From contig CAZKCT010000004.1 of NCBI GenBank assembly GCA_964551545.1, positions 2,569 through 58,708 of the forward strand: a DNA stretch of 56,140 nucleotides, in the 5' to 3' direction. A model generated the notes under the pieces. The model was given only the letters and a program-made list of their open reading frames with translations, ran no database searches and was not told where the DNA came from. The translations under genes were made by a program, and so were the position numbers. Of the stretch, positions 8,807 to 28,742 are shown piece after piece (the stretch's first letter is position 1; every line of letters begins with the position of its first letter). The DNA is from an uncultured Piscirickettsiaceae bacterium (GTDB lineage: Bacteria; Pseudomonadota; Gammaproteobacteria; GCF-002020875).

Positions 8807-8818
8807 GCAGCACATCCG

Positions 8819-10386: not shown

Positions 10387-10527
10387 GATATTCCTCAAAA
10401 AAGTAGTCAATAGTGGTTCTATTAGAACATAAAACAGGGAATTGGTTCCGCTGTTTTGTCTGCTTCGATAGGGCTGTAGGATACGTAAAACAAGCCATTT
10501 TTCAAGCGTGAAATTGGGAGATTTAGG

Positions 10528-11868
10528 TTATGCCGCCTGCTCAACCGGATGCTGGCGAAGGTTGTCCTTCGCAGTACGAATCAGTTGGGTAATGGGGATG
10601 TTGGAGGGGCAGGCATAGCTGCAAGCACCGCACTCGACGCAATCCATTACATGGTATTCGGTAGTCTCTTCATAGCGGCGGTTGCGACTCAGTAGTGCCA
10701 GCCGTGAGGGGTTGAGGAAGTAGGGGCATGCCTCCAGGCAGCGTCCACAACGGATGCAGGTGTATTCGGGGGGGCGTGCGGTTTCGGTAGCGGTAAAGGC
10801 GAGGATGCCGGAGCTACCTTTCAGAATCGGCACATCGAGGCTGGCAATGGGGAAGCCCATCATCGGTCCGCCCATGATAATCTCTTGGGTCTGTTCATTG
10901 AGTCCGCCGCTGAAGCGTAGTACATCACGGACTGAAGTACCCAGTGGCACCAGTAGATTGGCTGGCTGGTCGACACCGGGGCCAGATACGGTGACGATGC
11001 GCTCAATCAGTGGGCTGCCGGTCTGGAATAGATCAGCGATGGCGACGATGGTGCCGACATTATTGACGGCGATGCCAATGTCACGCGGGAGCTGCCCTGC
11101 AGGAACCTCTTGGCTATAGACTGATTGGATCAGCATTTTCTCTGCACCCTGTGGGTACTTTACCTCCAGCGCGGCCACCTTGATCGGCAGGTCGGGCTGC
11201 TGGTTGAGATGTTGCTGAATGGCCTCGATCGCCTCCGGCTTGTTCTGCTCAATACCGATACAGGCTCGTTTGGCTCCCAATTTCTGGCGTAGGATCTCGG
11301 TTCCCTCAATGACAGTTTCGGGGCGTTCCACCATCAGCCGGTGATCATTGGTGAGGAAGGGCTCGCACTCCGCGCCATTGATCAGAAGATCATTGATCTG
11401 CACTCCATCGGGTAGGGAATATTTCACATGGCTGGGGAAGGCAGCCCCTCCCATGCCGACGATCCCCGCCTGTTGTACCACCTCGATAAAGGCCTCTAGC
11501 GAGAGTGTTTTCCAGGATTGCGGGGGGGGGGTCTCCAGTCGCTGGGTAGAGTAGGGATCAGCCTCAATCACAATCGCCTCTTTCAGTGCGCCATCGAGCG
11601 TACGCTGCGGACTGATTTCGACAACTGTTCCTGTCACTGGACTGTGCAGTGCGGTTGAGATGAAAGCGCCCGGATTGGCGATCAATTCGCCGCGCCGAAC
11701 CGTCTGCCCCTTCTTGACCACAGCAACGGCTGGGGCACCGATATGTTGCCCCAGAGGCATCACGTAGCGCTTGCCAAAAGGGACGCGCTGGATCGACAGC
11801 CCCTCGGTTTGTCCCTTGTGGTGTACTGGATGCACACCATGGGCAAAGCTGCGGGAGAAGAGGCCCAT
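10528..11868 (-). CDS. rnfC: RnfC/RsxC, NADH-binding flavin/FeS subunit (short form)
   Basis: QHIGAPA, GIVGMGGAAFPSHVK, NGAECEPFLT, KYPQGAEK, MGGPMMG, CIRCGRCLEACP and CVECGACSYACP. Confidence 0.93.
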   Translation of the reverse strand: MGLFSRSFAHGVHPVHHKGQTEGLSIQRVPFGKRYVMPLGQHIGAPAVAVVKKGQTVRRGELIANPGAFISTALHSPVTGTVVEISPQRTLDGALKEAIVIEADPYSTQRLETPPPQSWKTLSLEAFIEVVQQAGIVGMGGAAFPSHVKYSLPDGVQINDLLINGAECEPFLTNDHRLMVERPETVIEGTEILRQKLGAKRACIGIEQNKPEAIEAIQQHLNQQPDLPIKVAALEVKYPQGAEKMLIQSVYSQEVPAGQLPRDIGIAVNNVGTIVAIADLFQTGSPLIERIVTVSGPGVDQPANLLVPLGTSVRDVLRFSGGLNEQTQEIIMGGPMMGFPIASLDVPILKGSSGILAFTATETARPPEYTCIRCGRCLEACPYFLNPSRLALLSRNRRYEETTEYHVMDCVECGACSYACPSNIPITQLIRTAKDNLRQHPVEQAA

Positions 11869-11873
11869 CAGTG

Positions 11874-12746
11874 TTACTTCAGAAGTTCTGCCATGTGCTG
11901 CCCGATCTCGGCTGGAGAGCGGGAGACGGTGACCCCTGCTGCTTCTAGTGCAGCGATCTTGTCTTGCGCCGTCCCTTTGCCGCCTGAGATGACCGCACCA
12001 GCGTGGCCCATACGGCGCCCAGGAGGAGCAGTCACGCCAGCGATATAGGCAACGACTGGCTTGGTGACGTGCTCTTGGATAAAGGCTGCTGCCTCTTCCT
12101 CTTTGCTGCCACCAATCTCGCCAACCAGGATGATCCCTTTAGTCTGCTCATCGGCCTCAAACAGCTTGAGACAATCGATAAAATTCATGCCGTGGATGGG
12201 ATCACCACCGATGCCGATACAGGTGCTCTGTCCGAGCCCTGCGTTGGTGGTTTGGAAGACTGCCTCATAGGTGAGGGTGCCGGAGCGGGAGACGATGCCG
12301 ATTGACCCCTGCTGGTGAATGTTGCCGGGCATGATGCCGATCTTGCACTCGCCAGGGGTGATGATGCCGGGGCAGTTGGGGCCAATCAGGCGTGCCTCTG
12401 GGTACTCAGCCAGAAACGCCTTCACTTTGATCATGTCCTGAACCGGAATCCCTTCCGTGATGCATACAATGGTTGTGATGCCGGCATCGGCCGCTTCAAA
12501 GATTGCATCAGCCGCAAAGGCTGCAGGCACATAGATCATGGATGCATCAGCACCGGTAGACTCGACTGCATCAGCCACCGTATTGAAGACTGGGCGCTCA
12601 AGATGAGTCTGTCCCCCTTTGCCAGGGGTGACGCCGCCAACAATATTGGTGCCGTAGGCAATTGACTGCTCTGCGTGGAAGGTGCCCTGTTTGCCGGTGA
12701 AGCCTTGAACAATTACGCGGGTATCTTTGTTAATCAGTACGCTCAT
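11874..12746 (-). CDS. sucD: Succinyl-CoA synthetase alpha subunit
   Basis: [26 protein letters not shown] and RRMGHAGA (phospho-His). Confidence 0.96.
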
Positions 12747-12757
12747 TGTGACTCTCC

Positions 12758-13918
12758 TTATGCTGCAGAGGCGACTGCCTTCTGGGCAGCACCGGTCAAT
12801 GTATCTTCGACGACGACGTTGAGACCACTGCTCTTCAACATCTCCATCCCCTCTGCGGCATTGGTCCCCTCCAGTCGTACGATGACAGGAATGGATACAC
12901 CGACCTCCTTGATGGCGGTCATGATGCCCTTTGCAATCAGATCACAACGGACGATGCCGCCGAAGATGTTGACCAGAATGGCACGTACCTTGTTGTCACT
13001 CAGAATTAGCTTGAAAGCGGCTGCAACGCGTTCAGCGGTAGTGCCGCCACCGACGTCGAGGAAGTTGGCGGGATCACCACCGTGCAGCTTGATCAGATCC
13101 ATGGTCGCCATCGCCAGACCGGCACCGTTCACCATGCAGCCGATATTGCCGTCGAGGGTGATGTAGTTAAGCTCGTGCTGGCTCGCCTCCAGCTCTGCTG
13201 CATCCTCCTGTGAGGGGTCGTGCATCTCCTGCAGCTTGGGGTGGCGATAGAGGGCGTTGTCGTCAATATTGATCTTTGCATCGAGTGCCAGCAGTTCACC
13301 GTCACCCGTGACGACCAGCGGGTTAATCTCCACCAGACTAAAGTCGTTGTGGGTGAAGAGGCCGTGCAGTCCTTTGAGAATCTTGGTTAGCATGCCGATC
13401 TGTTTCCCTTCCAGACCGAGACCGAAGGCTAGCTGACGGCACTGGTAGGGCTGTAGCCCGGCAGCAGGGTGGGCATGTACGGTGAGGATCTTCTCGGGAG
13501 ACTCAGCAGCCACCTGTTCGATATCCATACCGCCAGCAGCAGAGGCCATGTAGACGATCTGCTCCTTATCACGATCCACCAGTGCACCGAGGTAGAACTC
13601 GCTCTTGATATCCAGTGTCTGTTCAATCAGCACCTTGTGGATTGGTAGGGCACGGCCGTGGGTCTGGTGCGTACTCAGGCTCCCACCCAGCATCTCATCG
13701 ACGATGGCTGCTAGCTCGTCCCCCTCTTTGGTGATCTTGACACCGCCCGCCTTGCCGCGGCCACCTGCATGAACCTGCGCCTTGGCGACCCAGCCGTCAC
13801 TGTCGATCTTTCTGGCGCTGCTGGCGACCTCACTAGACTGTTCCACAGTGATGCCTTGGGGGATGGGGATACCCGCACGCTCAAAGAGCTGTTTGGATTG
13901 ATACTCGTGGAGGTTCAT
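12758..13918 (-). CDS. sucC: Succinyl-CoA synthetase beta subunit
   Basis: [33 protein letters not shown] and [10 protein letters not shown]. Confidence 0.96.
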
Positions 13919-14067
13919 GGGTGGTACTTCCTCTTGCTATTTTTTGTTGATCGACTTATCCGCTTGCAGCGTATTTGCTGCAGCTGGGCAAGTATATATT
14001 TTATGTAATAGGTCTATTTGTTGAATTTATGGATAGGTGCAATTAACTTTTTTAAATTTAGCCGATG

Positions 14068-17000
14068 CTAATGTGTGCTCTCTTTGTCCGTGTCTTGATA
14101 CTGATCTACTAGTGCAGAGAGGCGATCGGTAATACGACCGGTGACTTCGGACTCCAGTTGGTCGCGTAGTGTCTGCAGCTCCTGCTGGTGTGCCTGCTTG
14201 AGTGCATCGAGTTCGGCCTGATGGCTGGCGGCAACGCTTGCCTCGGCTGCTTGCTGCACTTGGCGGGTGAACGGTGTGACGGTTCCGGCCAGCTCCTGCA
14301 ACATCTGCCACTGCTCCAGTAACTGCCCTAGGCGGCGGGCGAATGAGGGGTCGATTGCCAGCTCAGTGCCATCTATATTACAGGTCGGTGTCTTGTTATT
14401 TTTCCCACGCTGATCGAGCTCGATCCACTGCTCCAGTGGCGTTGGCCCCTTGTGATTGTGCAGCGGGGTAAATAGTCCAGCAAAGCGTGACTCACCATGT
14501 GCCCATGCGGCAATGGAGAGGGTTTCAGTGGCGGCTTTCTCCAGGGTGATGCGAGTGCCAAAGACGCCAGCCTGATCCGGGTTGTAGCGGAACAGCGGGA
14601 AAGCGTGGCTCTCTACAGCGAGTCTTGCCTGGTGGACGGTTTGGTGGGTGTCGAAGCCGTGTCGTTGCGGGCTTGGGGCATGAATTCTCAATAGGGCAGG
14701 GCCACGATAGTGGAGTGCCTCCCGCATGGCATGGTTGAGATGGCCTGGGTCTGCGATGGAACTCTGTGCGACATAGGCATTACGTTGAGCAAGGGCAGAG
14801 AGCGCTAATTCGTTGCGGGCATCACTGTGGCGATGGCTGTTGCCGTGCAATCCCTCTTCGCCGGCAAAACCGAGGTCCATCTCGGCCAGTACGATCACCT
14901 TGATTGGTAGCTCACTGTTAAGTAGCCAAGTGAGTCCACCAGAAGCGGATGCCCCCAATGTCGTGTCATTGCCAATCAGTAGTAGAGGCGGACACTGTTG
15001 TTGCTCATCATCGCTCAAGTCACGCCAGATAAGGTGATCCAGCTCTTTGCGCTCTGCTTGTGGGCCGCCTTTGAGTAGGCTATTGGCTTGATGAATCAGG
15101 CGTTGGGTGGTGGTGGCCTGCTCTAGCTGTCCCTCCATCAATCCGGAGGCGAGAGCACCAATTTCGGCGGCGTTGCCGATGGTGACTGGAACCTGGAATG
15201 GATTAAGCGGGAAGTTTCCGGCCCAGGCTGCTGCAGTGCCTGATGCAAAGGCGAGACTATAGCGGGCGCGCCCCAGTGATTGGTCTCCGGAGGCGATTAG
15301 CTGTTGCTCTTGCTGGATTGCCTCAGCCAGCTCGATCCACTCCTTCAGCAGGAAGGCATCGACTCCCTCTCCTTCGATCTCGGCGGTCTTTTCGGCCAGT
15401 GTGGTGAGGGTGAGATTGCGGTTGGAGAGCTCTCCCAGCCCTTCGGCCAAGGCAGCGAGATCATCAATATGGGAGGCGACCGCCAACTGTTCACGAATGC
15501 CCTCCATCAGTCGCTGATAGAGCCCTTCCAGTGTCTGTAACTGCTGGTGTACCAGCGGCTGTTGGCGATATTCGGTAATTCCGAGCAGCTGACGCAGCAC
15601 CAGTTTTTCTCCGGAGCCTGGTTCTGCACGGTCTCCTCCAGCGATGGCCATTCCTGCATAACGGGAGAGCAGGGTGGCCTGGATTGCACCGATGCCTCCC
15701 TCATCGGAGAGTTCGATCAAACTGCTCGATGCGGTATCGGGTAGCTGCTCCCAGGTACGCCAGTTGCGGTAGTGAGTCTCTAGCAGCGTTGTGTTGGTGG
15801 TTGCAGGTTGTAGTGCAGCAGTTGCCTGCTTTTGCCGCTCGGCCTCTTGTTGGCAGAGTGTGGTACAGATTCCGCACCCTTTGCAGCTATCCGGGTTGAT
15901 GACCAGTGTCAGCAGTTCCCCTGCCTGCGCCTTACTGCGCTCATGGGTATTGAAAAGCTTTTCGGTCAGTACCAGTGGCATGGTACCGAGGTTTTCGCCC
16001 AACTGTTCGATGGCGGCATCAGCTGCCGCACGTCGGTCGGCAGCGAGCGGTGCTTGTTCCATCAGGATCTTCCACCCTTCCTGAATCAAGATGTTGCTAT
16101 CACCACTCTCTGTGATGGTGCTCAATACCTTGGTTAGGTTGGAGAGGTGGGGGCGTAGCGCATCGGCGCCGCCCATTCGCATCCCCGCCTCCAGCAGTTG
16201 CGTTGGTGTGAGGGCAGTGGCACCAATGGCGCTGTCGGGACAGTAGCTCCAGCAGTCACCGCAGCCGCTGCAGGATTGTGGATCGAGCTCAGGAAGCAGT
16301 GTCGCCTGTGAGGTGTGGCTGTTAAAGGTAGAGGAGAGAGGAGGGATATGGCCGGTTGCCAGGTAGGGATCAACCCCCTGCTGGGCCTCCATTCCATCGC
16401 GGTAGAGGACACCATTCTGATCCCAGAAGCGGGAGAGGCTGTGGTACCCCTGTGTGTTGCCCGCTTCGCCTTGTGTCAGATGGCGCACAGCCATCGGTGT
16501 CTGTGGCGCAGTGGCGCTCTCTATGGACTGTTCTGGAAGCGGTTTTGGCGAGAGTGGCTCGAGTGCACTCTGGAATCGCTCTTTCAGTTCATTGGGATGA
16601 TAGTTGTCGACCAGGCGATTCTCACGCAACTCAATGAAGGGCGTGGTCAGAATCAGGCTGAAGAAGTTGCCAATGCGTTGTGCGGTTGCTGCAGCGGCAT
16701 CTTCTAGGCTCTCTGTGTTGTAGTCAATCCAGTAGAGGGTGATGCCCAGTTTATGGAGTTGGGCCACGGTCTTGGTGGGTAGTTCGGCAAGATACTGTTC
16801 AGGGGCAAGTGTGCCTGGGTCAACCAGCAGGCGGGTACCGCTGTGCATGCGCGCCAGTGCTGGAATGCCTTGTTGTGGGGTGTGCTCAGTGAGCAGTGCA
16901 AGATCGATCGATTGTTCCGGATCAAGTGGGGCTGTCAGCGGGGTCGTGCTGTAGCTGAAGCAGTCGGTTTGGCTCTCCCCCCATGTCGACCAGTGGTTCT

Positions 17001-19378: not shown

Positions 19379-19393
19379 CGCAGCAGGGAGTCT

Positions 19394-21916: not shown

Positions 21917-21931
21917 CGTTGGTTCAACCCG

Positions 21932-22894
21932 TTAAATGGCAAAGGTGTCCAGCGCCTTGTTGGTCGCTGCAATTTTCTGCTCGTCGGTGGCGTCATGGCC
22001 GACACTGGAGAGCTCGTCATAGCAGGGACGAGACGCATCCTGGTAGAGCAGGCCGACGGGGATGATTCCCTTGTCGGTCTCGTCACGGGCAATCGCCATC
22101 GCTTCATTGAAGTCAGAGGGGTCGTGCTCGCGGGTTTCCGGGAAGAGGCGGTCGATGCCGGGAGCGACCGGAATACCATTTTCATGTTGTAACAGTAGTA
22201 GACGGGAGCTGTCTTCCTGCAGCTCCTTGGTGATGCTGTCACTGAAGACCGGGCAACGCTGGATGACGCGGACAAAGCTACTCCCTTTGTGGGCGTGTGC
22301 AGCCTTGATTGTCTCGTAGAGCAGGGGTGGATTCCAGTCAACTACCTGGGCCACAAAGGAGGCGTTGGTGATCGCCATGGTGACCGTGTTGGGGTTCATC
22401 ATATCAATCGATGCCCCCTCTGGATGGGTGTTGGTGGGGAACTCCAGTGGTGTGGTTGGAGAGGTCTGCTTCTTGGTCAGTCCGTAGATCTGATTATCGA
22501 AGACCAATACGGTCATATCCATGTTGTAGCGAACCGCATGGATCCAGTGACCGGCACCGATGGAGTAGCAGTCACCATCACCGGTAGCGACCCAGACATC
22601 CAGATCGGGGCGGCGGGATTTTACACCGCAGGCGAGTGGCAGCGCGCGACCATGGATGCCATGCAGGCCGTAGGTGGCCATATAGTGGGGCATACGGCTG
22701 GAGCAGCCGATGCCGGAGACAAAGACACTCTTTTCGGGAGGGAGCTGTGCATCACGCAATACGCGGTGGGCGGTTGCCAGGACGGCGTGGTCACCACAAC
22801 CGTCACACCAGCGCGCCACGTTACCCTCGTAGTCATCGATGGTGAAGTAGCGCTCCTGAATGTCGAGAGACCAATCTGCCTTAATTCCAAACAT
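21932..22894 (-). CDS. korB: 2-oxoacid (probably 2-oxoglutarate):ferredoxin oxidoreductase beta subunit
   Basis: WCDGCGDH, SGIGCSSR, HGRALP, TPP motif GDGD...NQIYGLTKKQTSPT and QRCP. Confidence 0.9.
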   Translation of the reverse strand: MFGIKADWSLDIQERYFTIDDYEGNVARWCDGCGDHAVLATAHRVLRDAQLPPEKSVFVSGIGCSSRMPHYMATYGLHGIHGRALPLACGVKSRRPDLDVWVATGDGDCYSIGAGHWIHAVRYNMDMTVLVFDNQIYGLTKKQTSPTTPLEFPTNTHPEGASIDMMNPNTVTMAITNASFVAQVVDWNPPLLYETIKAAHAHKGSSFVRVIQRCPVFSDSITKELQEDSSRLLLLQHENGIPVAPGIDRLFPETREHDPSDFNEAMAIARDETDKGIIPVGLLYQDASRPCYDELSSVGHDATDEQKIAATNKALDTFAI

Positions 22895-22897
22895 AAC

Positions 22898-24772
22898 TTA
22901 TTCTCCTGTCTCGCTGTCGGTCAGTTGATCCAGGCGCTCTTGCAGCGCCCCCTCAATCAGGTCCGGTTGTAGCGGGTGACCATAGACTACAGACCAGCAA
23001 TCGACATCGACCAGGGTCTGTACACGCAGTACGGTAGCGAGCTGGCCGTAGCGACGGTTCTCATCGGTGACCATCGGTGCGTTGGGATCATCGCTATAGT
23101 TGACCTCCACCGTAATCACCTTGTTGAAGCGGGAGAAGATCTCCTTCAATCCCGGTTCTAGAGGAGAGAGGAAGCGTAGATGGATGGTAGAGACCTTGTT
23201 GCCTTTCTCACGCAGGTTATCGACCGCTTCGGTGATCGCGCCCCAAGTAGAACCCCAGCCGATGACTAGCATATCACCAGACTCATCCCCATGAATCTTG
23301 GGTGGGGTGAGGGTGCTCTGCAGTGTGCCCAGCTTTCGGCTGCGCATGGTGTGGCTATACTGGTTTTCAGCGGACTCATAAGAGACCTTGCTGTGTTTGG
23401 TATGAGAGAGACCAGTCATGATGTACTCACCCTTCGGCATACCCGGAATCGGACGCTGTGAGAGGCCGGTGTTCTCGTCCCACTCAAAGGGGGCTACATT
23501 GGTATCCCATTCTGACTGATCCAGTGGCGGTGCCATCATCTCGCGGGTGACATCAGGGCGTGCCCACGGCTGTACGCCGGTTGCCAGATTGGCATCGGTC
23601 AATACAATGACTGGGCCACGGAAGGTTTCGGCCAGTTTACGTGCAGTGACCACCATGCTGAAACACTCGGCAATGGTGGCAGCTGCCATGATGATTTTTG
23701 GAGCATCGCCCGGCATACCGTACAGAGAGGAGAGCAGATCCGCCTGCTCAATCTTAGTAGGCAGACCGGTAGAGGGGCCGCCACGCTGTACGTCGACAAT
23801 CACCAGTGGGATCTCGGCCATCACTGCCAGCGCGATATTCTCGGTCTTCAGCGCCATGCCAGGACCAGAGGTGATGGTGCAGGCGGTCTTGCCCGCGTAC
23901 GAGGCACCAATCGCAAAGGAGATTGCGGCAATCTCATCTTCCGCTTGATGAATGAAACCACCGGCTTCAGGATAGATTTCTGCCAGATAGTGGGTGGCAG
24001 AGGTGGCCGGGGTGATCGGATACATCGAGACCAGCTCCATGCCCGAGGCGAGGACACCGAGTCCGACCGCCTGGTTTCCGTTGGTGACCACCATCTTCTG
24101 TTGTCCCATCTCTTCTGCAGGGGGGATGTCAAAGAAGTATTCGGGAAGCTGTTCTCCGGCAAAGGCGTAACCAGCATCAAATAGATTTTGGTTGCTGGTG
24201 ATGATCGCCTCCTTCTTGCCGGCAAAGGTGAGGGCGATCTCATTGCGACCCAACTCTTTGTCTCGGTTGTAGATGCGGCAGAGCATCCCGAGTACGAACA
24301 TGTTTTTGCCCTTGCGGGGATCTTTCACCACCTTCAGGCAGGCCTCATGAATCGGCAATTCGTGAACGACCAGGCCGTGGTCACGGAACTCCTTCACAGC
24401 TTTGGCGTACATTTGTTGGATTTCTTCGGAGGCATCCGTGGCCCAGCGGTTATCCAGCAATACTACAGAGCCCTTCTTGTAGGCGCCGTTGGCGATGCGA
24501 GAGTAGAGTACCTGCTCGTTAAAGGCGACGACGAGATCGCCCTCATTGCCGACATTGGTGATGTATTTGGAGCCGAGACGAATACGGATGCCGCTGGCAC
24601 CAGACGGGGTGCGAGCGGGCGGCTGAATCTCGGCCGGAATAATCTCTACCGTCCAGACGCCGTTATTCATCTTGGAGCTGATATTTCCGAAAGTCTGGCC
24701 GCACTTCTGTGCGCCTTCGCCGGAGTCGCTAACGATCTCGACGATGTGTTCCTGAATGGTTGTTGGACTCAA
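22898..24772 (-). CDS. korA: 2-oxoacid (probably 2-oxoglutarate):ferredoxin oxidoreductase alpha subunit (gamma-alpha fusion)
   Basis: DSGEGAQ, YPITPAT, QAEDEIAA, TSGPG and QRGGPSTGLPTK. Start placed at TTG 24772 after GAGGGA. Substrate is inferred. Confidence 0.9.
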   Translation of the reverse strand: MSPTTIQEHIVEIVSDSGEGAQKCGQTFGNISSKMNNGVWTVEIIPAEIQPPARTPSGASGIRIRLGSKYITNVGNEGDLVVAFNEQVLYSRIANGAYKKGSVVLLDNRWATDASEEIQQMYAKAVKEFRDHGLVVHELPIHEACLKVVKDPRKGKNMFVLGMLCRIYNRDKELGRNEIALTFAGKKEAIITSNQNLFDAGYAFAGEQLPEYFFDIPPAEEMGQQKMVVTNGNQAVGLGVLASGMELVSMYPITPATSATHYLAEIYPEAGGFIHQAEDEIAAISFAIGASYAGKTACTITSGPGMALKTENIALAVMAEIPLVIVDVQRGGPSTGLPTKIEQADLLSSLYGMPGDAPKIIMAAATIAECFSMVVTARKLAETFRGPVIVLTDANLATGVQPWARPDVTREMMAPPLDQSEWDTNVAPFEWDENTGLSQRPIPGMPKGEYIMTGLSHTKHSKVSYESAENQYSHTMRSRKLGTLQSTLTPPKIHGDESGDMLVIGWGSTWGAITEAVDNLREKGNKVSTIHLRFLSPLEPGLKEIFSRFNKVITVEVNYSDDPNAPMVTDENRRYGQLATVLRVQTLVDVDCWSVVYGHPLQPDLIEGALQERLDQLTDSETGE

Positions 24773-24941
24773 AACAGTTCCCTCGTAGAACAAAAATTCC
24801 TTGTGTAGCCTGAGGTTCAGGCGGGTAATGACAGCCCTTAATAATCGCACTATTTGTGCGTAGAAATCAAGTTTTAGGGGATTTTGTGCTCTTCAGATGC
24901 CTGCAAAATGCCCGAAGTTTTGCTGTTTTTTGTGGAGTTTA

Positions 24942-24955
24942 TTGAAATTTATCAA
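24942..24955. promoter_or_regulatory. FNR/CRP-family-like box upstream of korA
   Basis: TTGAAATTTATCAA is TTGAT-N4-ATCAA with one mismatch; a second TTGA-N5-TCAA palindrome lies at 24960-24972. Confidence 0.35.
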
Positions 24956-25025
24956 AACATTGAAAAAATCAATGGCGTCGATTGTGTTGTTCTAATAGGG
25001 GAGATTTGTAGAGCCCCCTTAAATA

Positions 25026-26303
25026 TTAGAAAAGTGGTTGCTCACTGTGCCGGAGTGGCTGTTCGTACTCCTCCATGAAGTGGTAGAGCGAGCTATCGAG
25101 TAGTTTCATGGCACCATCGAGTAGATGACAGCGGCCGCTGCCGGGCAGGATGCGAGTGAGGTTGATCAGGGTATCCAAGTCGGCTCGAGTGCCGTTGCCG
25201 CTATCGATTCGAGTCAGCAATTGGGAGGCGTAGTGGGTGCCGGTTTTACAGGAGGGGCACTGACCACAAGATGCCGTGGCAAAGAAAGAGACATATTCGG
25301 TCACGCGGCGGACGATGCCTGTTCCCTCAGAGATGACGATCATGGCGCCAGTTCCCAGACTGGAGCGACGCTGCTGGACGGAGGTAAAGTCGAGCGGTAC
25401 ATCCAGATCTTTTGGGGTGAGAATGGTGTTCGATGGACCCCCAACAAAGACCGCTTTCAATTTGCGGTCCAGCAACATACCGCCGCCGTAGTTGTAGATG
25501 AGCTCAGAGAGCGGGGTACCCATTGGTAATTCGTAGGCGCCAGGATGGAGGACATCCCCACTGAGTGAAAAAATCTTGGTGCCGTGTGATGCCCCTTCCC
25601 CCTGATTGATGAACCACTCGGCGCCATTGCGCAGGATGTGGGAGACATTGGCGAGGGTCTCGGTGTTGTTGATCAGAGTGGGAGACTCAAACAGTCCGGA
25701 TTGTGCAGGATAAGGTGGTTTGCCGCGTGGGAAGGGGAAGTTGCCCTCAATTGACTCGATCGCTGCGGTCTCTTCGCCACCGACATAGAGGCCAGAGCTG
25801 GCCACAATATAGAACTCCAGTGGACGTCCCAGAATTCCCGAGACCTGGCTGATGTATTTAGTGTCATCCCACTGATTGACCGCCTCTCGCATCGCCTCCA
25901 TGGAGCCGGTCAAATGGGGATTGATATAGAAGACGATCTGATTAATGCCGCAGGCGAGTGCGGTGATGATGGCCCCCTCAATCACCTGGTGCGGGGTCTC
26001 CTCCAGCAGAAGGCGATCCTTGAAGGTGCCGGGTTCATCCTCGTTGCCATTGCAGATCAGGTATTTGTCCTGATTGTTGGGCTCGTTGGCAACAAACTCC
26101 CATTTGATGTGCGTGGGGAATCCGCTGCCGCCGAGTCCAAGCAGCTGCGCCTCACGAATGGCGGGGAGGATTGTTGCAGGGTCGGTAATTGCCTGCTCCA
26201 GACCATCGCCGCCCACATCAATGAGCCAGGCATCAAGGTCTGCACCAAAGCGGCGGTCGGGATGGAGTAGCACCTGGTTGAGAAGAGAGGTGTCCGAACT
26301 CAT
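25026..26303 (-). CDS. NuoF/HoxF-like NADH-binding FMN/4Fe-4S subunit
   Basis: GLGGSGFPT, NEDEPGTFKDR, YVGGEETA, PRGKPPYPA, NNTETL and SCGQCPSC...C. Confidence 0.88.
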   Translation of the reverse strand: MSSDTSLLNQVLLHPDRRFGADLDAWLIDVGGDGLEQAITDPATILPAIREAQLLGLGGSGFPTHIKWEFVANEPNNQDKYLICNGNEDEPGTFKDRLLLEETPHQVIEGAIITALACGINQIVFYINPHLTGSMEAMREAVNQWDDTKYISQVSGILGRPLEFYIVASSGLYVGGEETAAIESIEGNFPFPRGKPPYPAQSGLFESPTLINNTETLANVSHILRNGAEWFINQGEGASHGTKIFSLSGDVLHPGAYELPMGTPLSELIYNYGGGMLLDRKLKAVFVGGPSNTILTPKDLDVPLDFTSVQQRRSSLGTGAMIVISEGTGIVRRVTEYVSFFATASCGQCPSCKTGTHYASQLLTRIDSGNGTRADLDTLINLTRILPGSGRCHLLDGAMKLLDSSLYHFMEEYEQPLRHSEQPLF

Positions 26304-27937
26304 GAGGAGCCGCTCCTGCGGTTGCGATGGAGTCCGGCATAGTCGGAGTCGAGATCAAATTTTGCGTACTCCGGGAAGAGAAGAGGACCTTCGTGGTCTA
26401 GTCCGAGCCCGGCAATGGTGATCTCCCGACGTAGTTGGTTAATATGTTCAATCGAGAGCTGTGTACGTCGTTTGGTTTTGCGTCGTTCCGCAGCGGTCAG
26501 ACCAGCGCGTCGTCCATAGCTGATGATCTCCAGCAGCGCATTGCCCATCAGTCGGTTCTTGCCGTGAATGCCGCCGGTGACCTCGCCGACACAGAGGAGG
26601 CCAGGAACCGAAGTTTCACACTGCTCATTAATAACGACCCCCCCGTTCTGATAGTGGAGGGTGGGGTAGATCAGCATCGGTTTTTGGGTCAGGTCGACCC
26701 CTGCTTTTTTGCCCAGATGCATCAGTTTTGGAAACCGTTTTTCGATAATTCCGGGGTGGCGTAGATTGAGGCCGGGTGTATCGAGCCAGACGCCAACCTG
26801 ATTGTCGTCAGTGACGATGCCACGCCCCTCCTGGCATTCACGAATGATGGATGCCGCAACAATATCGCGTGGCTGCAGCTCATCGACGAAGCGTTCTCCG
26901 TGGCCATTCAGTAGATAGGCGCCGTTGGAGCGGACCCCTTCGGTAATCAGTGTTCCAGCGAGGTGGTAGGGATGAGCCAGGCCGGTGGGGTGGTACTGAA
27001 AGCTGTCGAGGTCTCGCAGTTTTGTCCCCATGCGGTAGGCAAGTACCAGTCCATCTCCTGTGGCACCAAAGTGGTTGGAGGTGGGGAATTGGTTGAGATG
27101 CATTCGACCGATGCCGCCTGTGGCAAGGATGACCGACTTGGCATTGACCTGAATATATTTTCGATCTTTGAGGGAGGAGAGGACGGCGCCCGAGCAGCCA
27201 CCATGGTCATCTCCCAATAACTCTACGGTTGGGGAGTAGTTCCATACCTCGACCCCGCTGTTGTAGACTGTCTCGCGCAGGACACGCATCATCTCCAGTC
27301 CAGTGTAGTCCCGGTAGAAACAGATGCGCTCATTGCTGGTACCACCGGCACGACGGGTCAGTAGGTCTCCAAATTCGTCGAGATCAAACTGCATACCCTG
27401 CTGAATCAGCCAGCGTATGGTATCTGGGCCATCCAGTGCCAACTGCTCTACCAGACCGGGATCGGAGTGGTTGTGTCCCGCCTGGATGGTGTCGTTATAG
27501 TGAAGCTGGGGAGAGTCCCCTTTGTTGATGGAGGCCTGTATGCCCCCCTCGGCCATAATGGTGTTGCTGTCACCCAGACGCAGTTTGGTGGCCAGAATGA
27601 CACTTGCACCCTGTTGCTTTGCAATCAATGCGGCAGCGCAGCCAGCCCCACCGCCGCCGATGACCAGGACATCGGTGTTGACGGTGGCCGCTCCTGCGAG
27701 ATCGGACTCATTGATGCGCGAGTCAGACTGTAGCTGCTGTGCCAATTGGGTGTGACATGCGGCGCCGGCATTGGGACCGATCTCTAGATGAGTCAGAGAG
27801 GACTCAATATGGTCTGGGTGAAAGCGACTCAGCAGAATGTGGTTGTCCAGTGCTGGGTCGGGCAGGGGAAGTGTCTCATTGGGCTGATAGGATTCGAGCG
27901 CTTGCTGGTAAGCAGTACCCGGTTGGAGGTCGGTCAT
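26300..27937 (-). CDS. Soluble fumarate reductase-type flavoprotein (SdhA/FrdA/TfrA family, non-covalent FAD)
   Basis: GGGGAG; SNTIMAEGG (no covalent-FAD His); catalytic motifs QYHPTG, TEGVR, PRDIVA, HYQNGG and NRLMGN; no long C-terminal helical domain. Confidence 0.85.
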   Translation of the reverse strand: MTDLQPGTAYQQALESYQPNETLPLPDPALDNHILLSRFHPDHIESSLTHLEIGPNAGAACHTQLAQQLQSDSRINESDLAGAATVNTDVLVIGGGGAGCAAALIAKQQGASVILATKLRLGDSNTIMAEGGIQASINKGDSPQLHYNDTIQAGHNHSDPGLVEQLALDGPDTIRWLIQQGMQFDLDEFGDLLTRRAGGTSNERICFYRDYTGLEMMRVLRETVYNSGVEVWNYSPTVELLGDDHGGCSGAVLSSLKDRKYIQVNAKSVILATGGIGRMHLNQFPTSNHFGATGDGLVLAYRMGTKLRDLDSFQYHPTGLAHPYHLAGTLITEGVRSNGAYLLNGHGERFVDELQPRDIVAASIIRECQEGRGIVTDDNQVGVWLDTPGLNLRHPGIIEKRFPKLMHLGKKAGVDLTQKPMLIYPTLHYQNGGVVINEQCETSVPGLLCVGEVTGGIHGKNRLMGNALLEIISYGRRAGLTAAERRKTKRRTQLSIEHINQLRREITIAGLGLDHEGPLLFPEYAKFDLDSDYAGLHRNRRSGSS

Positions 27938-28569
27938 GGAGACTCCTCCTTGATAATGCTGAACCCACCCTTGCGGATCTTCTCTAGACGGTTGATCAGA
28001 TTGGAGGGGCGAGCGTGAAAGTAGGCTGTGACCCGGCGGGCAAAGAGGCCGACACGGTTAGGGGCGATCGATTCAGGACAGCCCGTCATGCAGAGGTCAC
28101 ACATGATGCACTCGATAAAGAGCTCTCCAGCCTCTTTGAAGCGTCCCTTGACGGCCAGCTCGACCCCTTTTTCGACATCAATTCCCTTGGGGCAGGCGGT
28201 GGTGCAGCCATGGCAGTGACGGCACTGTTGTGCCTCGGGGAATATGTTGTGGAATTCTGTCTGCACCTCCCAGGAGTTTGGAATCTGCTCCAGCTGGTAG
28301 CTATGCTGGGAGGGGGAGGGGAAGATCAGGAACATCACCTCCATGCCTTCCTCAACCAGTGTCTGGCACCCCATCTCCATGGAGACCTGCTGAGTGTCGG
28401 CACGGCGAACCAGGACACGACAAGAGCCACAAACACCTTCTAGGCAGCCAACCCCCTGAACGCGGGGATAACCGGCGTGCCACAACGCCTGAATGACAGA
28501 GAGCGTTGAAGGTACGGTGATCTGGTTGCCGTTAATGGTAACGGTGACTTCGGTTTTTTGGGCGCTCAT
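27934..28569 (-). CDS. FeS subunit (2Fe-2S plus 2x4Fe-4S) of the soluble fumarate reductase
   Basis: GCLEGVCGSC...C, CRHCHGCTTACP and CIMCDLCMTGCP. Start is MSAQKT at 28569; the longer ORF runs through the tRNA. Overlaps the flavoprotein start by 4 nt. Confidence 0.85.
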   Translation of the reverse strand: MSAQKTEVTVTINGNQITVPSTLSVIQALWHAGYPRVQGVGCLEGVCGSCRVLVRRADTQQVSMEMGCQTLVEEGMEVMFLIFPSPSQHSYQLEQIPNSWEVQTEFHNIFPEAQQCRHCHGCTTACPKGIDVEKGVELAVKGRFKEAGELFIECIMCDLCMTGCPESIAPNRVGLFARRVTAYFHARPSNLINRLEKIRKGGFSIIKEESP

Positions 28570-28619: not shown

Positions 28620-28660
28620 TAAAAAAGCCGGTCTTCGCGTTGAGGCAAAGACCGGCTTTA
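28620..28660 (-). terminator. Terminator after tRNA-Glu
   Basis: Minus strand reads AAAGCCGGTCTT...AAGACCGGCTTTTTT. Confidence 0.8.
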
Positions 28661-28667
28661 GATCTGT

Positions 28668-28742
28668 TGGTACTCCCTAGGGGAATCGAACCCCTGTTAC
28701 CGGCGTGAGAGGCCAGCGTCCTAACCGCTAGACGAAGAGAGC
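28668..28742 (-). tRNA. tRNA-Glu (anticodon CTC)
   Basis: 75-nt cloverleaf GCTCTCTTCGTCTAGCGGTTAGGACGCTGGCCTCTCACGCCGGTAACAGGGGTTCGATTCCCCTAGGGAGTACCA; loop CT-CTC-AC; encoded CCA. Confidence 0.95.

What the first reader, a model, noticed from the sequence alone, without database searches (positions are those of the whole stretch)
10528..28569. Co-oriented 18 kb module for the reductive arm fumarate to succinate to succinyl-CoA to 2-oxoglutarate, with its own electron-transfer proteins
Seen: eleven genes on one strand, encoding a soluble FeS/flavoprotein/NuoF-like trio, KorA, KorB, an 840-aa PFOR-fragment-ferredoxin protein, RnfB, a 1487-aa degenerate PFOR, SucC, SucD and RnfC. sucCD sits with kor rather than sucAB. 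Established: Frd, SucCD and Kor catalyse three consecutive reductive-TCA steps, and rTCA gene clusters are known in some sulfur-oxidising gammaproteobacteria such as tubeworm symbionts. Inference: this is a CO2-fixing or anaplerotic module fed by NADH, possibly from the neighbouring DsrL, with dedicated low-potential electron delivery to Kor. No citrate-cleaving enzyme, Idh, Mdh or fumarase is in the window, so a full rTCA cycle is not shown.
Basis: partly seen in the sequence, partly recalled or inferred. Interest (0 to 1): 0.8.

Follow-up and report, generated by a model that had tools for sequence, protein, structure and literature searches.

The report
Rnf-linked 2-oxoglutarate synthase module with dead PFORs
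A marine sulfur-oxidising bacterium keeps eleven co-oriented genes that couple a ferredoxin-dependent 2-oxoglutarate enzyme, succinyl-CoA synthetase and a soluble fumarate-reductase-like enzyme to parts of an Rnf ion-pump complex through two large, catalytically dead relatives of pyruvate:ferredoxin oxidoreductase, which points to how such bacteria may feed very low-potential electrons to a CO2-adding enzyme.

Summary
In detail: eleven genes lie on the minus strand at 10528-28569 with the stated identities. New here: the 1487-aa and 840-aa proteins are PFOR pseudoenzymes. In 50 aligned relatives, 0 keep the catalytic Glu or any of the four proximal-cluster Cys, and the thiamine-diphosphate loop is deleted. 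Their ferredoxin cysteines are invariant. Their nearest intact relative is a 1642-aa oxidoreductase inside a second rnf operon of the same genome. In relatives the conserved core is korAB-P840-rnfB-P1487, usually followed by rnfCDGEA. sucCD and the FeS/flavoprotein/NuoF-like trio are optional additions. In this genome the matching rnfDGEA lies on a separate 5-kb contig. The genome also has RuBisCO, 2-oxoglutarate dehydrogenase and two membrane succinate/fumarate enzymes. No ATP-citrate lyase, citryl-CoA synthetase or NAD-malate dehydrogenase was found. Best reading: an Rnf-fed, NADH-driven reductive branch from fumarate to 2-oxoglutarate, serving anaplerosis rather than a full rTCA cycle. Direction is inferred, not shown. 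Kor plus Frd in thiotrophs is already in print; the pseudo-PFOR/Rnf architecture was not found in the papers searched.

The parts
27934..28569 (-). FeS subunit, 211 aa from the ATG at 28569: one [2Fe-2S] (Fer2_4) site and two CxxCxxCxxxC motifs
   Evidence: Pfam Fer2_4 and Fer4_9. Cys pattern read. The start is fixed by the tRNA and terminator upstream. A 4-base overlap joins it to the next gene.
26300..27937 (-). Fumarate-reductase/aspartate-oxidase-type flavoprotein, 545 aa, with no covalent-FAD histidine and no Succ_DH_flav_C domain
   Evidence: FAD_binding_2 261 bits. Best NCBIfam hits are TfrA (352 bits) and NadB (308 bits), both under their cut-offs. In the alignment to E. coli SdhA (1nek), the HPTG, TEGxR, HY..GG and NRL.GN stretches are kept, and Asn125 stands where SdhA has the His of SHT.
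25026..26303 (-). NuoF-like NADH/FMN/[4Fe-4S] subunit, 425 aa
   Evidence: Complex1_51K 143 bits, SLBB, NADH_4Fe-4S 71 bits. TIGR01959 379 bits, under its cut-off of 558. It is 39% identical to the genome's own NuoF on C6.
22898..24850 (-). KorA, alpha subunit of a two-subunit 2-oxoacid:ferredoxin oxidoreductase. Relatives align from about residue 25-30, so the true start may lie downstream.
   Evidence: POR, POR_N, PFOR_II. TIGR03710 is over its cut-off. The best solved relative is Magnetococcus marinus OGOR 6n2n_A, E 5.8e-80.
21932..22894 (-). KorB, beta subunit with an intact GDG thiamine-diphosphate motif and four Cys (30, 33, 64, 214)
   Evidence: TPP_enzyme_C 94 bits, PFO_beta_C. Sequence read.
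19394..21916 (-). P840: helical N-terminal part, a degenerate PFOR domain-VI (beta-subunit) fold without thiamine-diphosphate or cluster ligands, a long helix, an acidic linker and a C-terminal single-cluster ferredoxin domain
   Evidence: Fer4_13. Residues 353-704 align to P1487 residues 1164-1471, E 8e-11. Alignment with the intact 1642-aa enzyme. AF2 model with pLDDT 80.4. Foldseek top hits are PFOR 6cio and OFOR beta subunits. Five ferredoxin-domain Cys are invariant in 77 of 77 sequences.
18515..19378 (-). RnfB-like polyferredoxin, 287 aa, with a hydrophobic N-terminal segment and 20 Cys
   Evidence: PF04060 FeS and Fer4 families. TIGR01944 is over its cut-off. It is 54% identical to the RnfB of the C27 rnf operon and 28% to the canonical one on C11. 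Sequence read.
14068..18531 (-). P1487: PFOR pseudoenzyme that keeps domains I and II and the 2x[4Fe-4S] domain V. The catalytic Glu, the proximal-cluster Cys and the thiamine-diphosphate loop are lost.
   Evidence: Pfam, PDB phmmer, alignment A1. Counts over 50 relatives: 0 of 50 have Glu, 0 of 50 have Cys at each of 4 sites, and 50 of 50 have Cys at the 8 ferredoxin sites.
12758..13918 (-). SucC, succinyl-CoA synthetase beta subunit
   Evidence: NF001913 557 bits against a cut-off of 370. It is the only copy in the genome.
11874..12746 (-). SucD, succinyl-CoA synthetase alpha subunit
   Evidence: NF004230 477 bits against a cut-off of 336. It is the only copy in the genome.
10528..11868 (-). 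RnfC, the NADH/FMN subunit of an Rnf complex. The membrane genes do not follow it here.
   Evidence: RnfC_N, Complex1_51K, SLBB, Fer4. TIGR01945 527 bits. It is 48% identical to the RnfC of C27. The rnfDGEA orthologues lie on contig C79.
28624..28742 (-). tRNA-Glu(CUC) gene and a strong terminator-like hairpin directly upstream of the module. They mark its 5' border.
   Evidence: ARAGORN, Rfam tRNA 58.4 bits, terminator scan.

Best explanation
The cluster is a real, conserved unit of sulfur-oxidising Gammaproteobacteria. [quoted passage not shown]

RnfC takes electrons from NADH. The Rnf membrane core (rnfDGEA, here on contig C79) uses the ion gradient to lift them to ferredoxin potential. The membrane-anchored RnfB-like polyferredoxin passes them on.

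Two PFOR-derived pseudoenzymes have lost catalysis but keep iron-sulfur ferredoxin domains. They are P1487, with two [4Fe-4S] clusters, and P840, with a tethered C-terminal ferredoxin. They act as built-in carriers or scaffolds between RnfB and KorAB.

In this lineage two further enzymes were added. One is a soluble NuoF-like/FeS/flavoprotein enzyme that reduces fumarate with NADH. The other is the genome's only SucCD.

Together they would run fumarate -> succinate -> succinyl-CoA -> 2-oxoglutarate at the cost of 2 NADH, 1 ATP and ion-motive force. This branch supplies 2-oxoglutarate for biosynthesis in a Calvin-cycle autotroph. It works beside the irreversible oxidative enzymes (2-oxoglutarate dehydrogenase, membrane succinate dehydrogenase) and is not a complete rTCA cycle.

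Shown: gene identities, loss of catalytic sites, retained clusters, synteny with rnf, and genome content. Inferred: physical association, electron path and direction.
For: Dead PFORs:
- In alignment A1, the genome's own PFOR and the 1642-aa enzyme keep the catalytic Glu, GDG...SNTGGQ and four Cys. Seven members of the P1487 family do not.
- Over 50 relatives, 0 of 50 have Glu at the catalytic position, 0 of 50 have Cys at each proximal-cluster site, and 50 of 50 have Cys at all 8 ferredoxin sites.
- P840 likewise lacks these ligands, while 77 of 77 sequences keep the C-terminal ferredoxin Cys. Its fold matches PFOR domain VI and OFOR beta subunits.

Rnf link:
- The same genome has rnfB-OFOR(1642 aa, intact)-rnfCDGEA on C27.
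- The window's RnfB and RnfC are nearest to that set, at 54% and 48% identity.
- In distant genomes the order is korAB-P840-rnfB-P1487-(sucCD)-rnfC-rnfD.., with rnfD after rnfC in 4 of the 4 loci that have rnfC.
- rnfDGEA follows rnfC in 4 of the 4 close loci that reach that far.
- A third rnfDGEA set lies on C79.

Direction:
- The flavoprotein has Asn where SdhA has the FAD-linking His. By established work on E. coli Frd His44 mutants (recalled), non-covalent FAD supports fumarate reduction but not succinate oxidation.
- Its partners are an NADH module and not a quinone anchor.
- The genome holds separate oxidative enzymes: sucA, sucB and sdhCAB.
- No PEP carboxylase was found.
- In the Riftia symbiont a dimeric korAB and a 'PFOR-like' gene fall together with nirB and glnL when sulfide is limiting (PMC11636981, passages seen). 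I did not verify that these genes are the homologues.

Expression, weak evidence: contigs of two seawater metatranscriptome runs match at 99% or more. Some bridge korB/P840 and the FeS/flavoprotein junction.
Against: - No experiment or raw-read expression profile shows direction. KorAB, SucCD and Rnf are all reversible.
- In this genome rnfC is not followed by rnfDGEA. The C79 set is on a separate 5-kb contig, so coupling in this organism rests on orthology.
- The route to fumarate is thin. No Ldh-type malate dehydrogenase and no class II fumarase or aspartase C-domain were found. Only a class I fumarase, a malic-enzyme match and an Mqo-like gene are present.
- The trio is separable from kor. 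It stands apart in G009 and G343, probably also in G048, and without a NuoF-like gene in G009.
- The flavoprotein scores nearly as well as an L-aspartate oxidase.
- RNA-library contigs can contain DNA and cannot rank genes.
- KorAB substrate specificity rests on homology and on the sucCD neighbourhood only.
Confidence: 0.55

Rival explanations
1. Same parts, opposite direction. Under anoxia KorAB oxidises 2-oxoglutarate. SucCD makes ATP. Reduced ferredoxin domains feed Rnf, which reduces NAD+ and pumps ions. The soluble flavoprotein enzyme re-oxidises NADH by reducing fumarate. Both branches end in succinate, giving an energy-conserving branched fermentation for life at oxic-sulfidic interfaces.
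For: - KorAB, SucCD and Rnf are reversible (established knowledge).
- All enzymes converge on succinate.
- A fumarate-only, non-covalent flavoprotein fits this reading equally well.
- The organism comes from seawater metagenomes. A named relative of the P840 protein, Ca. Thiopontia, belongs to a clade that peaks at euxinic interfaces (PMC8359478, passage seen).
- The intact sister enzyme inside the C27 rnf operon could equally be an oxidative, energy-conserving unit.
Against: - The genome already has 2-oxoglutarate dehydrogenase.
- In respiring proteobacteria Rnf is usually read as ferredoxin-reducing (recalled: nif-linked Rnf, Rsx).
- In the Riftia symbiont korAB and the 'PFOR-like' gene fall together under sulfide limitation with nitrogen-assimilation genes. 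That fits an assimilatory role better, but homology of those genes was not verified.
Confidence: 0.3
2. The module is part of a complete autotrophic reductive or reversed-oxidative TCA cycle that runs beside the Calvin cycle, as in tubeworm symbionts.
For: - OGOR, a fumarate-reductase-like enzyme, SucCD, an intact 1182-aa PFOR on C21, three citrate-synthase-family genes, an isocitrate-dehydrogenase-family gene and a class I fumarase are all present.
- rTCA plus CBB is documented in tubeworm symbionts and Thioflavicoccus (PMC6315080, whole main text read).
Against: - No Citrate_bind domain was found (the control rang nowhere, so this is weak).
- There is no SucC or SucD paralogue that could be ACL or citryl-CoA synthetase in a genome that is 98% complete.
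- No Ldh-type NAD-malate dehydrogenase was found, only an Mqo-like gene.
- The known symbiont rTCA cluster uses korABCD, tfrAB and flx-hdr. None of these is the architecture here.
Confidence: 0.05
3. The neighbourhood is not one functional unit. P840 and P1487 are decaying remnants of a duplicated oxidoreductase, and the trio, kor, suc and rnf genes merely lie together.
For: - The catalytic sites are lost.
- The trio and sucCD are optional.
- Gaps of 175 and 149 bases split the cluster into three blocks.
- Same-genus relatives carry a version of P1487 about 200 residues shorter.
Against: - The reading frames of 1487 and 840 codons are intact.
- Relatives are spread across many clusters: 114 proteins at E<=0.001 for P1487, about 60 of them full-length family members by my reading, and 226 proteins at E<=1e-10 for P840.
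- Many columns are invariant, including all ferredoxin Cys.
- The order korAB-P840-rnfB-P1487 is kept in 6 of 6 distant and 5 of 5 close loci.
- The genes are translationally coupled by overlaps or gaps of 3-17 bases.
Confidence: 0.05

Closest known systems
Dimeric korAB cluster and 'PFOR-like' gene of tubeworm symbionts (Rubin-Blum et al. 2019, PMC6315080; Mitchell et al. 2024, PMC11636981)
   Same: - A two-subunit OGOR co-localised with other TCA enzymes in a sulfur-oxidising gammaproteobacterium that also has RuBisCO.
- A homologue of P840 is recorded from the endosymbiont of Riftia pachyptila (P0165, 46% identity).
- korAB and a 'PFOR-like' gene change expression together.
   Different: - The main texts name neither the pseudoenzyme nature of the large ORFs nor the embedding in an rnf operon.
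- The details are in Text S1 Note 2, Fig. S4 and supplementary tables, which I could not open.
- I did not verify that the 'PFOR-like' gene is a homologue of P840 or P1487.
Symbiont rTCA cluster aclAB-korABCD-tfrAB-flxABCD-hdrABC (PMC6315080)
   Same: - The idea that electron-transfer complexes are interleaved with OGOR and a soluble fumarate reductase to deliver electrons directly.
- The flavoprotein's best NCBIfam match is TfrA.
   Different: - Here the OGOR has two subunits.
- The electron module is Rnf-type plus PFOR-derived proteins, not Flx-Hdr.
- The fumarate enzyme has a NuoF-like NADH subunit and a Fer2_4 FeS subunit, not TfrB.
- No ACL was found.
Rnf complex RnfABCDGE (nif-linked Rnf of Rhodobacter and Azotobacter; Rsx of E. 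coli)
   Same: - RnfC and RnfB pass their NCBIfam cut-offs.
- Relatives carry rnfDGEA directly downstream.
- In those systems Rnf is read as using the ion gradient to reduce a low-potential acceptor (recalled).
   Different: - Two giant PFOR-derived genes and korAB (plus sucCD) are inserted around rnfB and rnfC.
- RnfB is 287 aa with 20 Cys.
- In this genome the membrane genes are on another contig.
Pyruvate:ferredoxin oxidoreductase (Desulfovibrio africanus 1b0p, Moorella thermoacetica 6cin)
   Same: P1487 aligns to domains I, II, V and VI. The P840 model matches domain VI.
   Different: - The catalytic Glu, the thiamine-diphosphate loop and the proximal [4Fe-4S] ligands are missing.
- There is a long helical insertion and a C-terminal helix. 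In P840 there is also an extra ferredoxin domain, shared only with the 1642-aa Rnf-embedded enzyme.
Magnetococcus marinus OGOR (6n2n/6n2o), a two-subunit rTCA 2-oxoglutarate synthase
   Same: It is the best solved relative of KorA (E 5.8e-80, residues 36-587), with the same alpha/beta architecture and no delta ferredoxin subunit.
   Different: The substrate and catalytic bias of the window's enzyme are untested. The genomic partners differ.
Soluble NADH-dependent fumarate reductase of Hydrogenobacter thermophilus (Miura et al. 2008; paper not held; composition recalled)
   Same: A cytoplasmic, NADH-linked fumarate reductase serving a reductive TCA branch.
   Different: That enzyme is recalled as having five subunits and no NuoF-type subunit. 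Here there are three subunits: NuoF-like, a Fer2_4/2x4Fe-4S protein, and a flavoprotein that lacks the C-terminal domain. No sequence comparison was possible.

Membership tests
[quoted passage not shown] | Alpha subunit with domains III, I and II; beta subunit with the thiamine-diphosphate domain; no delta ferredoxin subunit | tested here: met
   KorA has POR, POR_N and PFOR_II; KorB has TPP_enzyme_C and PFO_beta_C. TIGR03710 is over its cut-off.
[quoted passage not shown] | Intact GDG motif and four Cys for one [4Fe-4S] in the beta subunit | tested here: met
   Read from the KorB sequence: GDG at 104-106 and Cys 30, 33, 64, 214. The assignment of these Cys as ligands is recalled, not computed.
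[quoted passage not shown] | Specificity for 2-oxoglutarate/succinyl-CoA | not testable with these tools
   Only indirect support: the best solved relative is M. marinus OGOR, and the genome's only sucCD lies in the cluster.
Pyruvate:ferredoxin oxidoreductase (for P1487 and P840) | Thiamine-diphosphate/Mg binding motif GDG...N in domain VI | tested here: not met
   P1487 reads G-N-D-T, and the loop aligned to SNTGGQ is deleted in 7 of 7 family members in A1. P840 has E-S-S at the aligned place.
Pyruvate:ferredoxin oxidoreductase (for P1487 and P840) | Four Cys ligands of the proximal [4Fe-4S] and the catalytic Glu of domain I | tested here: not met
   0 of 50 relatives have Cys at each of the four columns, and 0 of 50 have Glu (P 42, A 5, G 2, Q 1). 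The genome's own PFOR and the 1642-aa enzyme keep them.
Pyruvate:ferredoxin oxidoreductase (for P1487 and P840) | Homology and fold of PFOR domains | tested here: met
   phmmer to 6cin gives E 7.7e-29. Foldseek of the P840 model to 6cio gives E 1.6e-5, probability 1.00.
Rnf complex | RnfC (RnfC_N, FMN/NADH domain, 2x4Fe-4S) and RnfB (N-terminal anchor, FeS domain, ferredoxin domains) | tested here: met
   TIGR01945 527.5 bits against 245.95; TIGR01944 81.8 bits against 68.7. The hydrophobic N-terminus of RnfB was read.
Rnf complex | Membrane subunits RnfD, G, E and A encoded with B and C | tested here: inconclusive
   They are absent from the window. They are present on the 5-kb contig C79, 49% identical in RnfD to the C27 set. 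They follow rnfC in 8 of the 9 loci that reach beyond rnfC, the window being the exception.
Autotrophic reductive TCA cycle | Citrate cleavage (ACL, or citryl-CoA synthetase plus lyase) | tested here: not met
   PF16114 gave no match, but its control rang in 0 of 14 genomes. tblastn with SucC and SucD found no paralogue at E<=1e-5. The genome is 98% complete.
Autotrophic reductive TCA cycle | NAD(P)-malate dehydrogenase for oxaloacetate to malate | tested here: not met
   PF02866 gave no match, and its control rang in 13 of 14 genomes. Only an Mqo-family gene is on C10. The Ldh_2 type was not searched.
Fumarate reductase/succinate dehydrogenase flavoprotein | FAD_binding_2 domain with the conserved His/Arg substrate and proton-transfer residues | tested here: met
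   261 bits. The HPTG, TEGxR, HY..GG and NRL.GN stretches align with E. coli SdhA 1nek. Residue roles are recalled. L-aspartate oxidases share these stretches.
Fumarate reductase/succinate dehydrogenase flavoprotein | Covalent 8-alpha-histidyl FAD and the C-terminal helical domain, as in membrane-bound enzymes | tested here: not met
   Asn125 aligns with the His of SHT in 1nek. No Succ_DH_flav_C hit. The C10 SdhA and the window's second flavoprotein (42057-44009) both have that domain.

The most novel reading that the evidence does not exclude
KorAB, RnfB/RnfC, the Rnf membrane core and the two PFOR pseudoenzymes form one membrane-bound supercomplex. It would be an NADH-fed, ion-gradient-driven 2-oxoglutarate synthase. 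Electrons would never leave on free ferredoxin. They would run through the retained clusters of P1487 and the tethered ferredoxin of P840 straight to the KorB cluster. The sister operon rnfB-OFOR(1642 aa)-rnfCDGEA would be the ancestral, self-contained form of the same machine. This would be a previously unrecognised way for oxygen-exposed autotrophs to power a ferredoxin-dependent carboxylation.
Probability: 0.25. Interest if true: 0.8.

Novelty: new variant of a known kind. Interest (0 to 1): 0.62.

Why it matters
Ferredoxin-dependent carboxylases such as OGOR need electrons near -500 mV. How respiring, oxygen-exposed bacteria deliver them is an open question for symbionts and pelagic sulfur oxidisers that carry 'reductive' TCA enzymes without a full rTCA cycle.

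This cluster offers a concrete, conserved candidate: an Rnf variant with built-in carriers derived from a dead PFOR, next to the enzyme it would serve.

It is directly testable. According to source names, cultivable bacteria carry P840 relatives, for example Thiocystis violacea and Endothiovibrio diazotrophicus.

It also gives a function-bearing annotation to two large protein families now labelled 'ferredoxin', 'pyruvate decarboxylase', '4Fe-4S binding protein' or 'hypothetical'. It affects how Kor/Frd genes are read in carbon budgets of oxygen-deficient waters and chemosynthetic symbioses.

Tried and rejected
- **Complex prediction**, P1487 residues 1080-1487 with P840 residues 300-720 (alignments A3, A2): no verdict, score 0.16 against a mark of 0.32, controls not folded. 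This is no evidence either way.
- **Parts without RNA-contig cover.** Bins 10728-12055 had no cover in X6 or X7, and cover over P1487/sucCD/rnfC was sparse in X7. Contigs cannot show absence, and I had no second read-laying run for a silent control stretch.
- **AprA guess.** My first guess that the flavoprotein at 42057-44009 was AprA was wrong. It is a b558-type SdhA/FrdA.
- **Orphan rnfC.** The idea that rnfC is orphaned in the genome was rejected after finding rnfDGEA on C79.
- **DsrL link.** No support beyond adjacency here.
- **Electron bifurcation by the trio** (NADH + fumarate + ferredoxin): considered, but nothing tested speaks for it.
- **ESM Atlas look-alikes of P1487** gave only generic names.
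- **Literature.** Five searches looked for a description of PFOR-like genes in rnf operons or of a NuoF-type fumarate reductase.
  - rnfB/rnfC/korA/korB.
  - PFOR-like/Rnf complex/sulfur.
  - NADH-dependent fumarate reductase/NuoF.
  - M. marinus/OGOR.
  - Thiodiazotropha/Rnf/oxoglutarate.
  - I also read passages in PMC10734462, the 2026 Ferrigenium preprint, PMC13147460 and PMC13768988. None described this architecture.
  - This covers open-access main texts only. The supplements of PMC6315080 and PMC11636981 may describe the cluster and were closed.

**Tools unavailable:**
- pdb_via_wide was not on the machine.
- PMC2580677 is not held.

**Not done:**
- No tree of the OFOR family.
- No dN/dS.
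- No search for pyruvate carboxylase, aconitase or Ldh_2-type malate dehydrogenase.
- No family search on the C21 PFOR or the C79 genes, which were named by tblastn and alignment only.
- I did not use the third homologous-protein search, the representative-library search, the second structure job or the metagenome scan.

Full report
**What is there.** Eleven ORFs lie head to tail on the minus strand between 10528 and 28569.
- A 211-aa FeS protein with Fer2_4 and two 4Fe-4S motifs.
- A 545-aa flavoprotein of the fumarate-reductase/aspartate-oxidase family.
- A 425-aa NuoF-like protein.
- KorA and KorB.
- An 840-aa protein in which Pfam sees only a C-terminal Fer4_13 domain.
- A 287-aa RnfB-like polyferredoxin.
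- A 1487-aa protein with POR_N, PFOR_II and Fer4 only.
- SucC, SucD and RnfC.

Gene junctions are overlaps or gaps of 3-17 bases. The exceptions are 175 bases before korA and 149 before sucC. The 5' border is set by a tRNA-Glu(CUC) gene at 28668-28742 and a strong hairpin with a T-run at 28659-28624. This confirms 28569 as the start of the first gene. Downstream lies a co-oriented Bax1-I family gene, then the convergent dsrMKL..OPN genes. Upstream lies divergent pcnB. The module has 55.5-57.6% G+C in 2-kb bins. The flanks mostly have 51-53%, though one bin just to its right reaches 57.0%.

**The trio.**
- The NuoF-like protein carries the FMN/NADH domain, SLBB and the 4Fe-4S domain.
- The FeS protein has a NuoG-N-terminus-type 2Fe-2S site and two ferredoxin-type motifs.
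- The flavoprotein aligns with E. coli SdhA over residues 88-484. It keeps the HPTG, TEGxR, HY..GG and NRL.GN stretches. It has Asn125 where SdhA has the His that links FAD covalently, and it lacks the Succ_DH_flav_C domain.
- No membrane anchor is encoded beside it.
- By established work on E. coli fumarate reductase (recalled), loss of the covalent link leaves fumarate reduction but abolishes succinate oxidation. A soluble NADH:fumarate reductase is therefore the simplest reading. L-aspartate oxidases share these residues and score almost as high, so the substrate is inferred.
- The FeS subunit was found in 13 of 400 sampled gammaproteobacterial genomes.
- The trio lies beside korAB in the window, L002 (where the FeS gene lies off the contig end), L004, L005, G044, G084, G181 and G342.
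- It stands apart from kor in G009 (on another contig and without the NuoF-like gene, next to men-type genes) and in G343. It is followed by under 1 kb of contig in G048. In G215 the contig ends inside it.
- It is therefore a separable enzyme recruited to the cluster.

**KorAB and SucCD.** KorA passes the 2-oxoacid:acceptor oxidoreductase subfamily cut-off. Its best solved relative is the Magnetococcus marinus 2-oxoglutarate:ferredoxin oxidoreductase (E 5.8e-80). KorB keeps GDG and four Cys. SucC and SucD pass their equivalog cut-offs and are the only copies in the genome.

**The two large proteins are PFOR pseudoenzymes.** I aligned three kinds of sequence: the genome's own 1182-aa PFOR (contig C21), a 1642-aa relative on contig C27, and seven members of the P1487 family.
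- The first two keep the domain-I Glu, the two Cys of the GACxGC stretch, the third and fourth Cys, and GDG...SNTGGQ.
- The P1487 family has Pro at the Glu position, Glu/Ser/Thr/Ser at the Cys positions, and G-N-D-T for G-G-D-G. The loop carrying SNTGGQ is deleted.
- Over 50 family members (31-83% identical to the query): 0 of 50 have Glu, 0 of 50 have Cys at any of the four sites, and 50 of 50 keep all eight Cys of the two ferredoxin-type clusters of domain V.
- Residues 353-704 of P840 are homologous to P1487 residues 1164-1471 (E 8e-11).
- P840 residues 143-838 are homologous to the C-terminal 660 residues of the 1642-aa protein.
- P840 too lacks the motif and the Cys ligands.
- All 77 aligned members keep five Cys of the C-terminal ferredoxin domain.
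- An AlphaFold2 model (pLDDT 80.4) matches PFOR and OFOR beta subunits by Foldseek (best E 1.6e-5; TM-scores are low because only one domain matches).
- Both families are large. For P1487, 114 proteins scored E<=0.001, about 60 of them full-length family members by my reading of the table. For P840, 226 proteins scored E<=1e-10.
- Sources name P840 relatives from the Riftia and Lamellibrachia endosymbionts, a Solemya pervernicosa symbiont, lucinid symbionts, Sedimenticola, Thiocystis violacea, Endothiovibrio and Ca. Thiopontia. The labels are 'ferredoxin' or 'pyruvate decarboxylase'.

**The Rnf connection.** tblastn of the genome with the window's proteins found a paralogous operon on C27. Its order is rnfB, the intact 1642-aa OFOR, then rnfC, D, G, E, A. 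The OFOR has POR_N, PFOR_II, POR, Fer4, TPP_enzyme_C and the same C-terminal extension and Fer4_13 domain as P840.
- The window's RnfB and RnfC are 54% and 48% identical to that set. They are 28% and 38% identical to the canonical rnf genes on C11.
- Close MAGs (L001-L005, labelled Piscirickettsiaceae or Methylophaga by their records) share the gene order. In the 4 that reach beyond rnfC, rnfDGEA follows, after a 1.3-kb insert in two of them.
- In six distant genomes, korA-korB-P840-rnfB-P1487 is kept in 6 of 6. rnfC follows in 4 of 6, and rnfD follows rnfC in 4 of those 4. sucCD is present in 2 of 6 and the trio in 3 of 6.
- The intact type sits in rnf operons in 3 of 3 genomes fetched.
- In the 400-genome sample, by my reading of the rows, 11 genomes including this one carry the degenerate type, 17 carry the long intact type, and 5 carry both.
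- In this genome rnfC is followed by the Bax1-I gene instead. An rnfDGEA set 49% identical in RnfD to that of C27 lies on the 5,045-base contig C79. That identity resembles the kor-linked sets of relatives. I cannot tell whether this is a rearrangement or an assembly break.

**Genome context.** The genome is 2.02 Mb and 98% complete.
- Present:
  - RuBisCO.
  - sucA, sucB, sdhCAB, an Mqo-family gene and gltA on C10.
  - Two further citrate-synthase-family genes.
  - Two Iso_dh-family genes.
  - A class I fumarase.
  - A malic-enzyme match.
  - An intact PFOR.
- In the window itself, a b558-type succinate/fumarate oxidoreductase lies at 41434-44791.
- Not found:
  - ACL Citrate_bind (its control rang nowhere).
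  - Any SucC or SucD paralogue.
  - Monomeric IDH.
  - FumaraseC_C.
  - Ldh-type malate dehydrogenase.
  - PEP carboxylase.

The organism is thus a Calvin-cycle sulfur oxidiser with a complete set of oxidative TCA enzymes plus 'reverse' counterparts for the two steps that are otherwise irreversible or quinone-linked. A canonical rTCA cycle is not supported.

**Expression.** The stretch is held at 100% of sampled words by five DNA runs of two studies, which may be its source. Two seawater metatranscriptome runs hold 56% and 33% of the words. Their contigs match at 99% or more in 28 of 32 (X6) and 18 of 18 (X7) laid records. They include pieces bridging P840/korB (21476-22652) and the flavoprotein/FeS junction (27888-28515 and 27821-28066). 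RNA libraries can hold DNA, and contigs show neither level nor single transcripts, so this is a weak hint of transcription only.

**Mechanism and direction.** The anatomy suggests the following path. NADH enters at RnfC. The membrane core spends ion-motive force. RnfB hands electrons to the retained clusters of P1487 and the tethered ferredoxin of P840, which serve KorAB. KorAB, unlike PFOR, has no ferredoxin domain of its own.

With the trio and SucCD, the lineage-specific sum is fumarate + CO2 + 2 NADH + ATP + ion gradient -> 2-oxoglutarate.

I favour the reductive, anaplerotic direction at 0.55 for four reasons:
- The flavoprotein looks fumarate-only.
- The oxidative enzymes exist separately.
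- No PEP carboxylase was found.
- The symbiont's korAB and 'PFOR-like' genes fall with nitrogen-assimilation genes under sulfide limitation (passages of PMC11636981; homology not verified).

The same parts would equally serve an anoxic, succinate-forming, energy-conserving branch (0.30). Physical association is inferred from synteny alone. The one complex prediction gave no verdict.

**What is known.**
- Seah et al. 2019 (PMC6593406, passages) already list 'Kor and Frd (reductive TCA)' with Rnf, and without citrate cleavage, in several thiotrophic symbionts.
- Rubin-Blum et al. 2019 (main text read) note a dimeric korAB co-localised with TCA genes. The details are in supplements I could not open.
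- I found no main-text description of the pseudo-PFOR proteins, of korAB inside an rnf operon, or of an intact OFOR inside an rnf operon.
- The 2026 review of PFOR diversity has no occurrence of 'pseudoenzyme' or 'catalytically inactive', and mentions Rnf only generically.

I therefore rate this a new variant of a known kind.

**Limits.**
- Counts rest on my reading of rows.
- Residue roles are recalled from the PFOR and SdhA/FrdA literature.

Noticed in passing
window 41434-44791 (+): A second membrane succinate:quinone/quinol:fumarate oxidoreductase. It has a b558-family cytochrome b (TIGR02046 146.8 bits against 96), a flavoprotein (NF005749 1089 bits against 866) and an FeS subunit (NF005746 401 bits against 243). 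Together with sdhCAB on C10 and the soluble trio, this gives three fumarate/succinate enzymes in a 2-Mb genome.
   Followed up: partly
L010 (G000:C27) 7912-18211 (-): The operon rnfB-OFOR(1642 aa)-rnfC-D-G-E-A. The OFOR is an intact 2-oxoacid:ferredoxin oxidoreductase with a C-terminal extension and a ferredoxin domain, sitting inside an rnf operon. The same arrangement occurs in 3 of 3 other genomes fetched. Its substrate is unknown, and it scores under the PFOR equivalog cut-off (424 against 911 bits).
   Followed up: partly
G000 contig C79 (5,045 bases), about 710-3610 (-): A third rnfDGEA set lies alone on a short contig. Upstream are two small plus-strand ORFs. It looks like the membrane half of the window's rnf genes, separated by rearrangement or by an assembly break.
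   Followed up: partly
window 28624-28742 (-): A tRNA-Glu(CUC) gene and a terminator lie directly upstream of a cluster that would make the glutamate precursor. tblastn of the spurious long ORF suggests the tRNA is also upstream in L004 and L005. This is probably coincidence.
   Followed up: no
window 288-8806 (+): A dsr-type gene row. It has a NarI-like membrane protein, a DsrK-like FeS protein, a 659-aa DsrL-like NAD(P)H oxidoreductase, a DsrO-like ferredoxin, a NrfD-family DsrP-like protein, a CobB/CobQ-type amidase (DsrN-like) and an Fe-S assembly-type small protein. It is convergent on the module. The names are my reading of Pfam domains.
   Followed up: no
window 40256-41173 (+), 45042-46982 (-), 47253-48332 (-): A SoxA/TsdA-type cytochrome c, a flavocytochrome c sulfide dehydrogenase pair (FCSD flavoprotein plus a cytochrome c) and a 359-aa ankyrin-repeat protein.
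   Followed up: no
L016, L017 (G229, G379), L002, L004, L005: Same-genus and close relatives carry a P1487 version of about 1,260-1,290 aa that lacks the equivalent of residues about 466-676, the remnant of PFOR domain III. This is further erosion of a non-catalytic protein.
   Followed up: no
L064 (G009:C18) 4595-14961: In a same-family genome the FeS-flavoprotein pair stands without a NuoF-like gene and away from korAB. It lies upstream of genes with MenF-, MenB-, MenD- and MenC-like domains.
   Followed up: no
L043 (G044:C1) 13262-15142: KorA of this complete 3.4-Mb genome matches in three overlapping tblastn pieces. This suggests frameshifts or sequencing errors in the gene.
   Followed up: no
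L003 1-5300: In this relative the ORFs upstream of korA look by their N-termini like NiFe-hydrogenase large and small subunits and Isp-type proteins, not the trio. That is my recognition; no family search was run.
   Followed up: no
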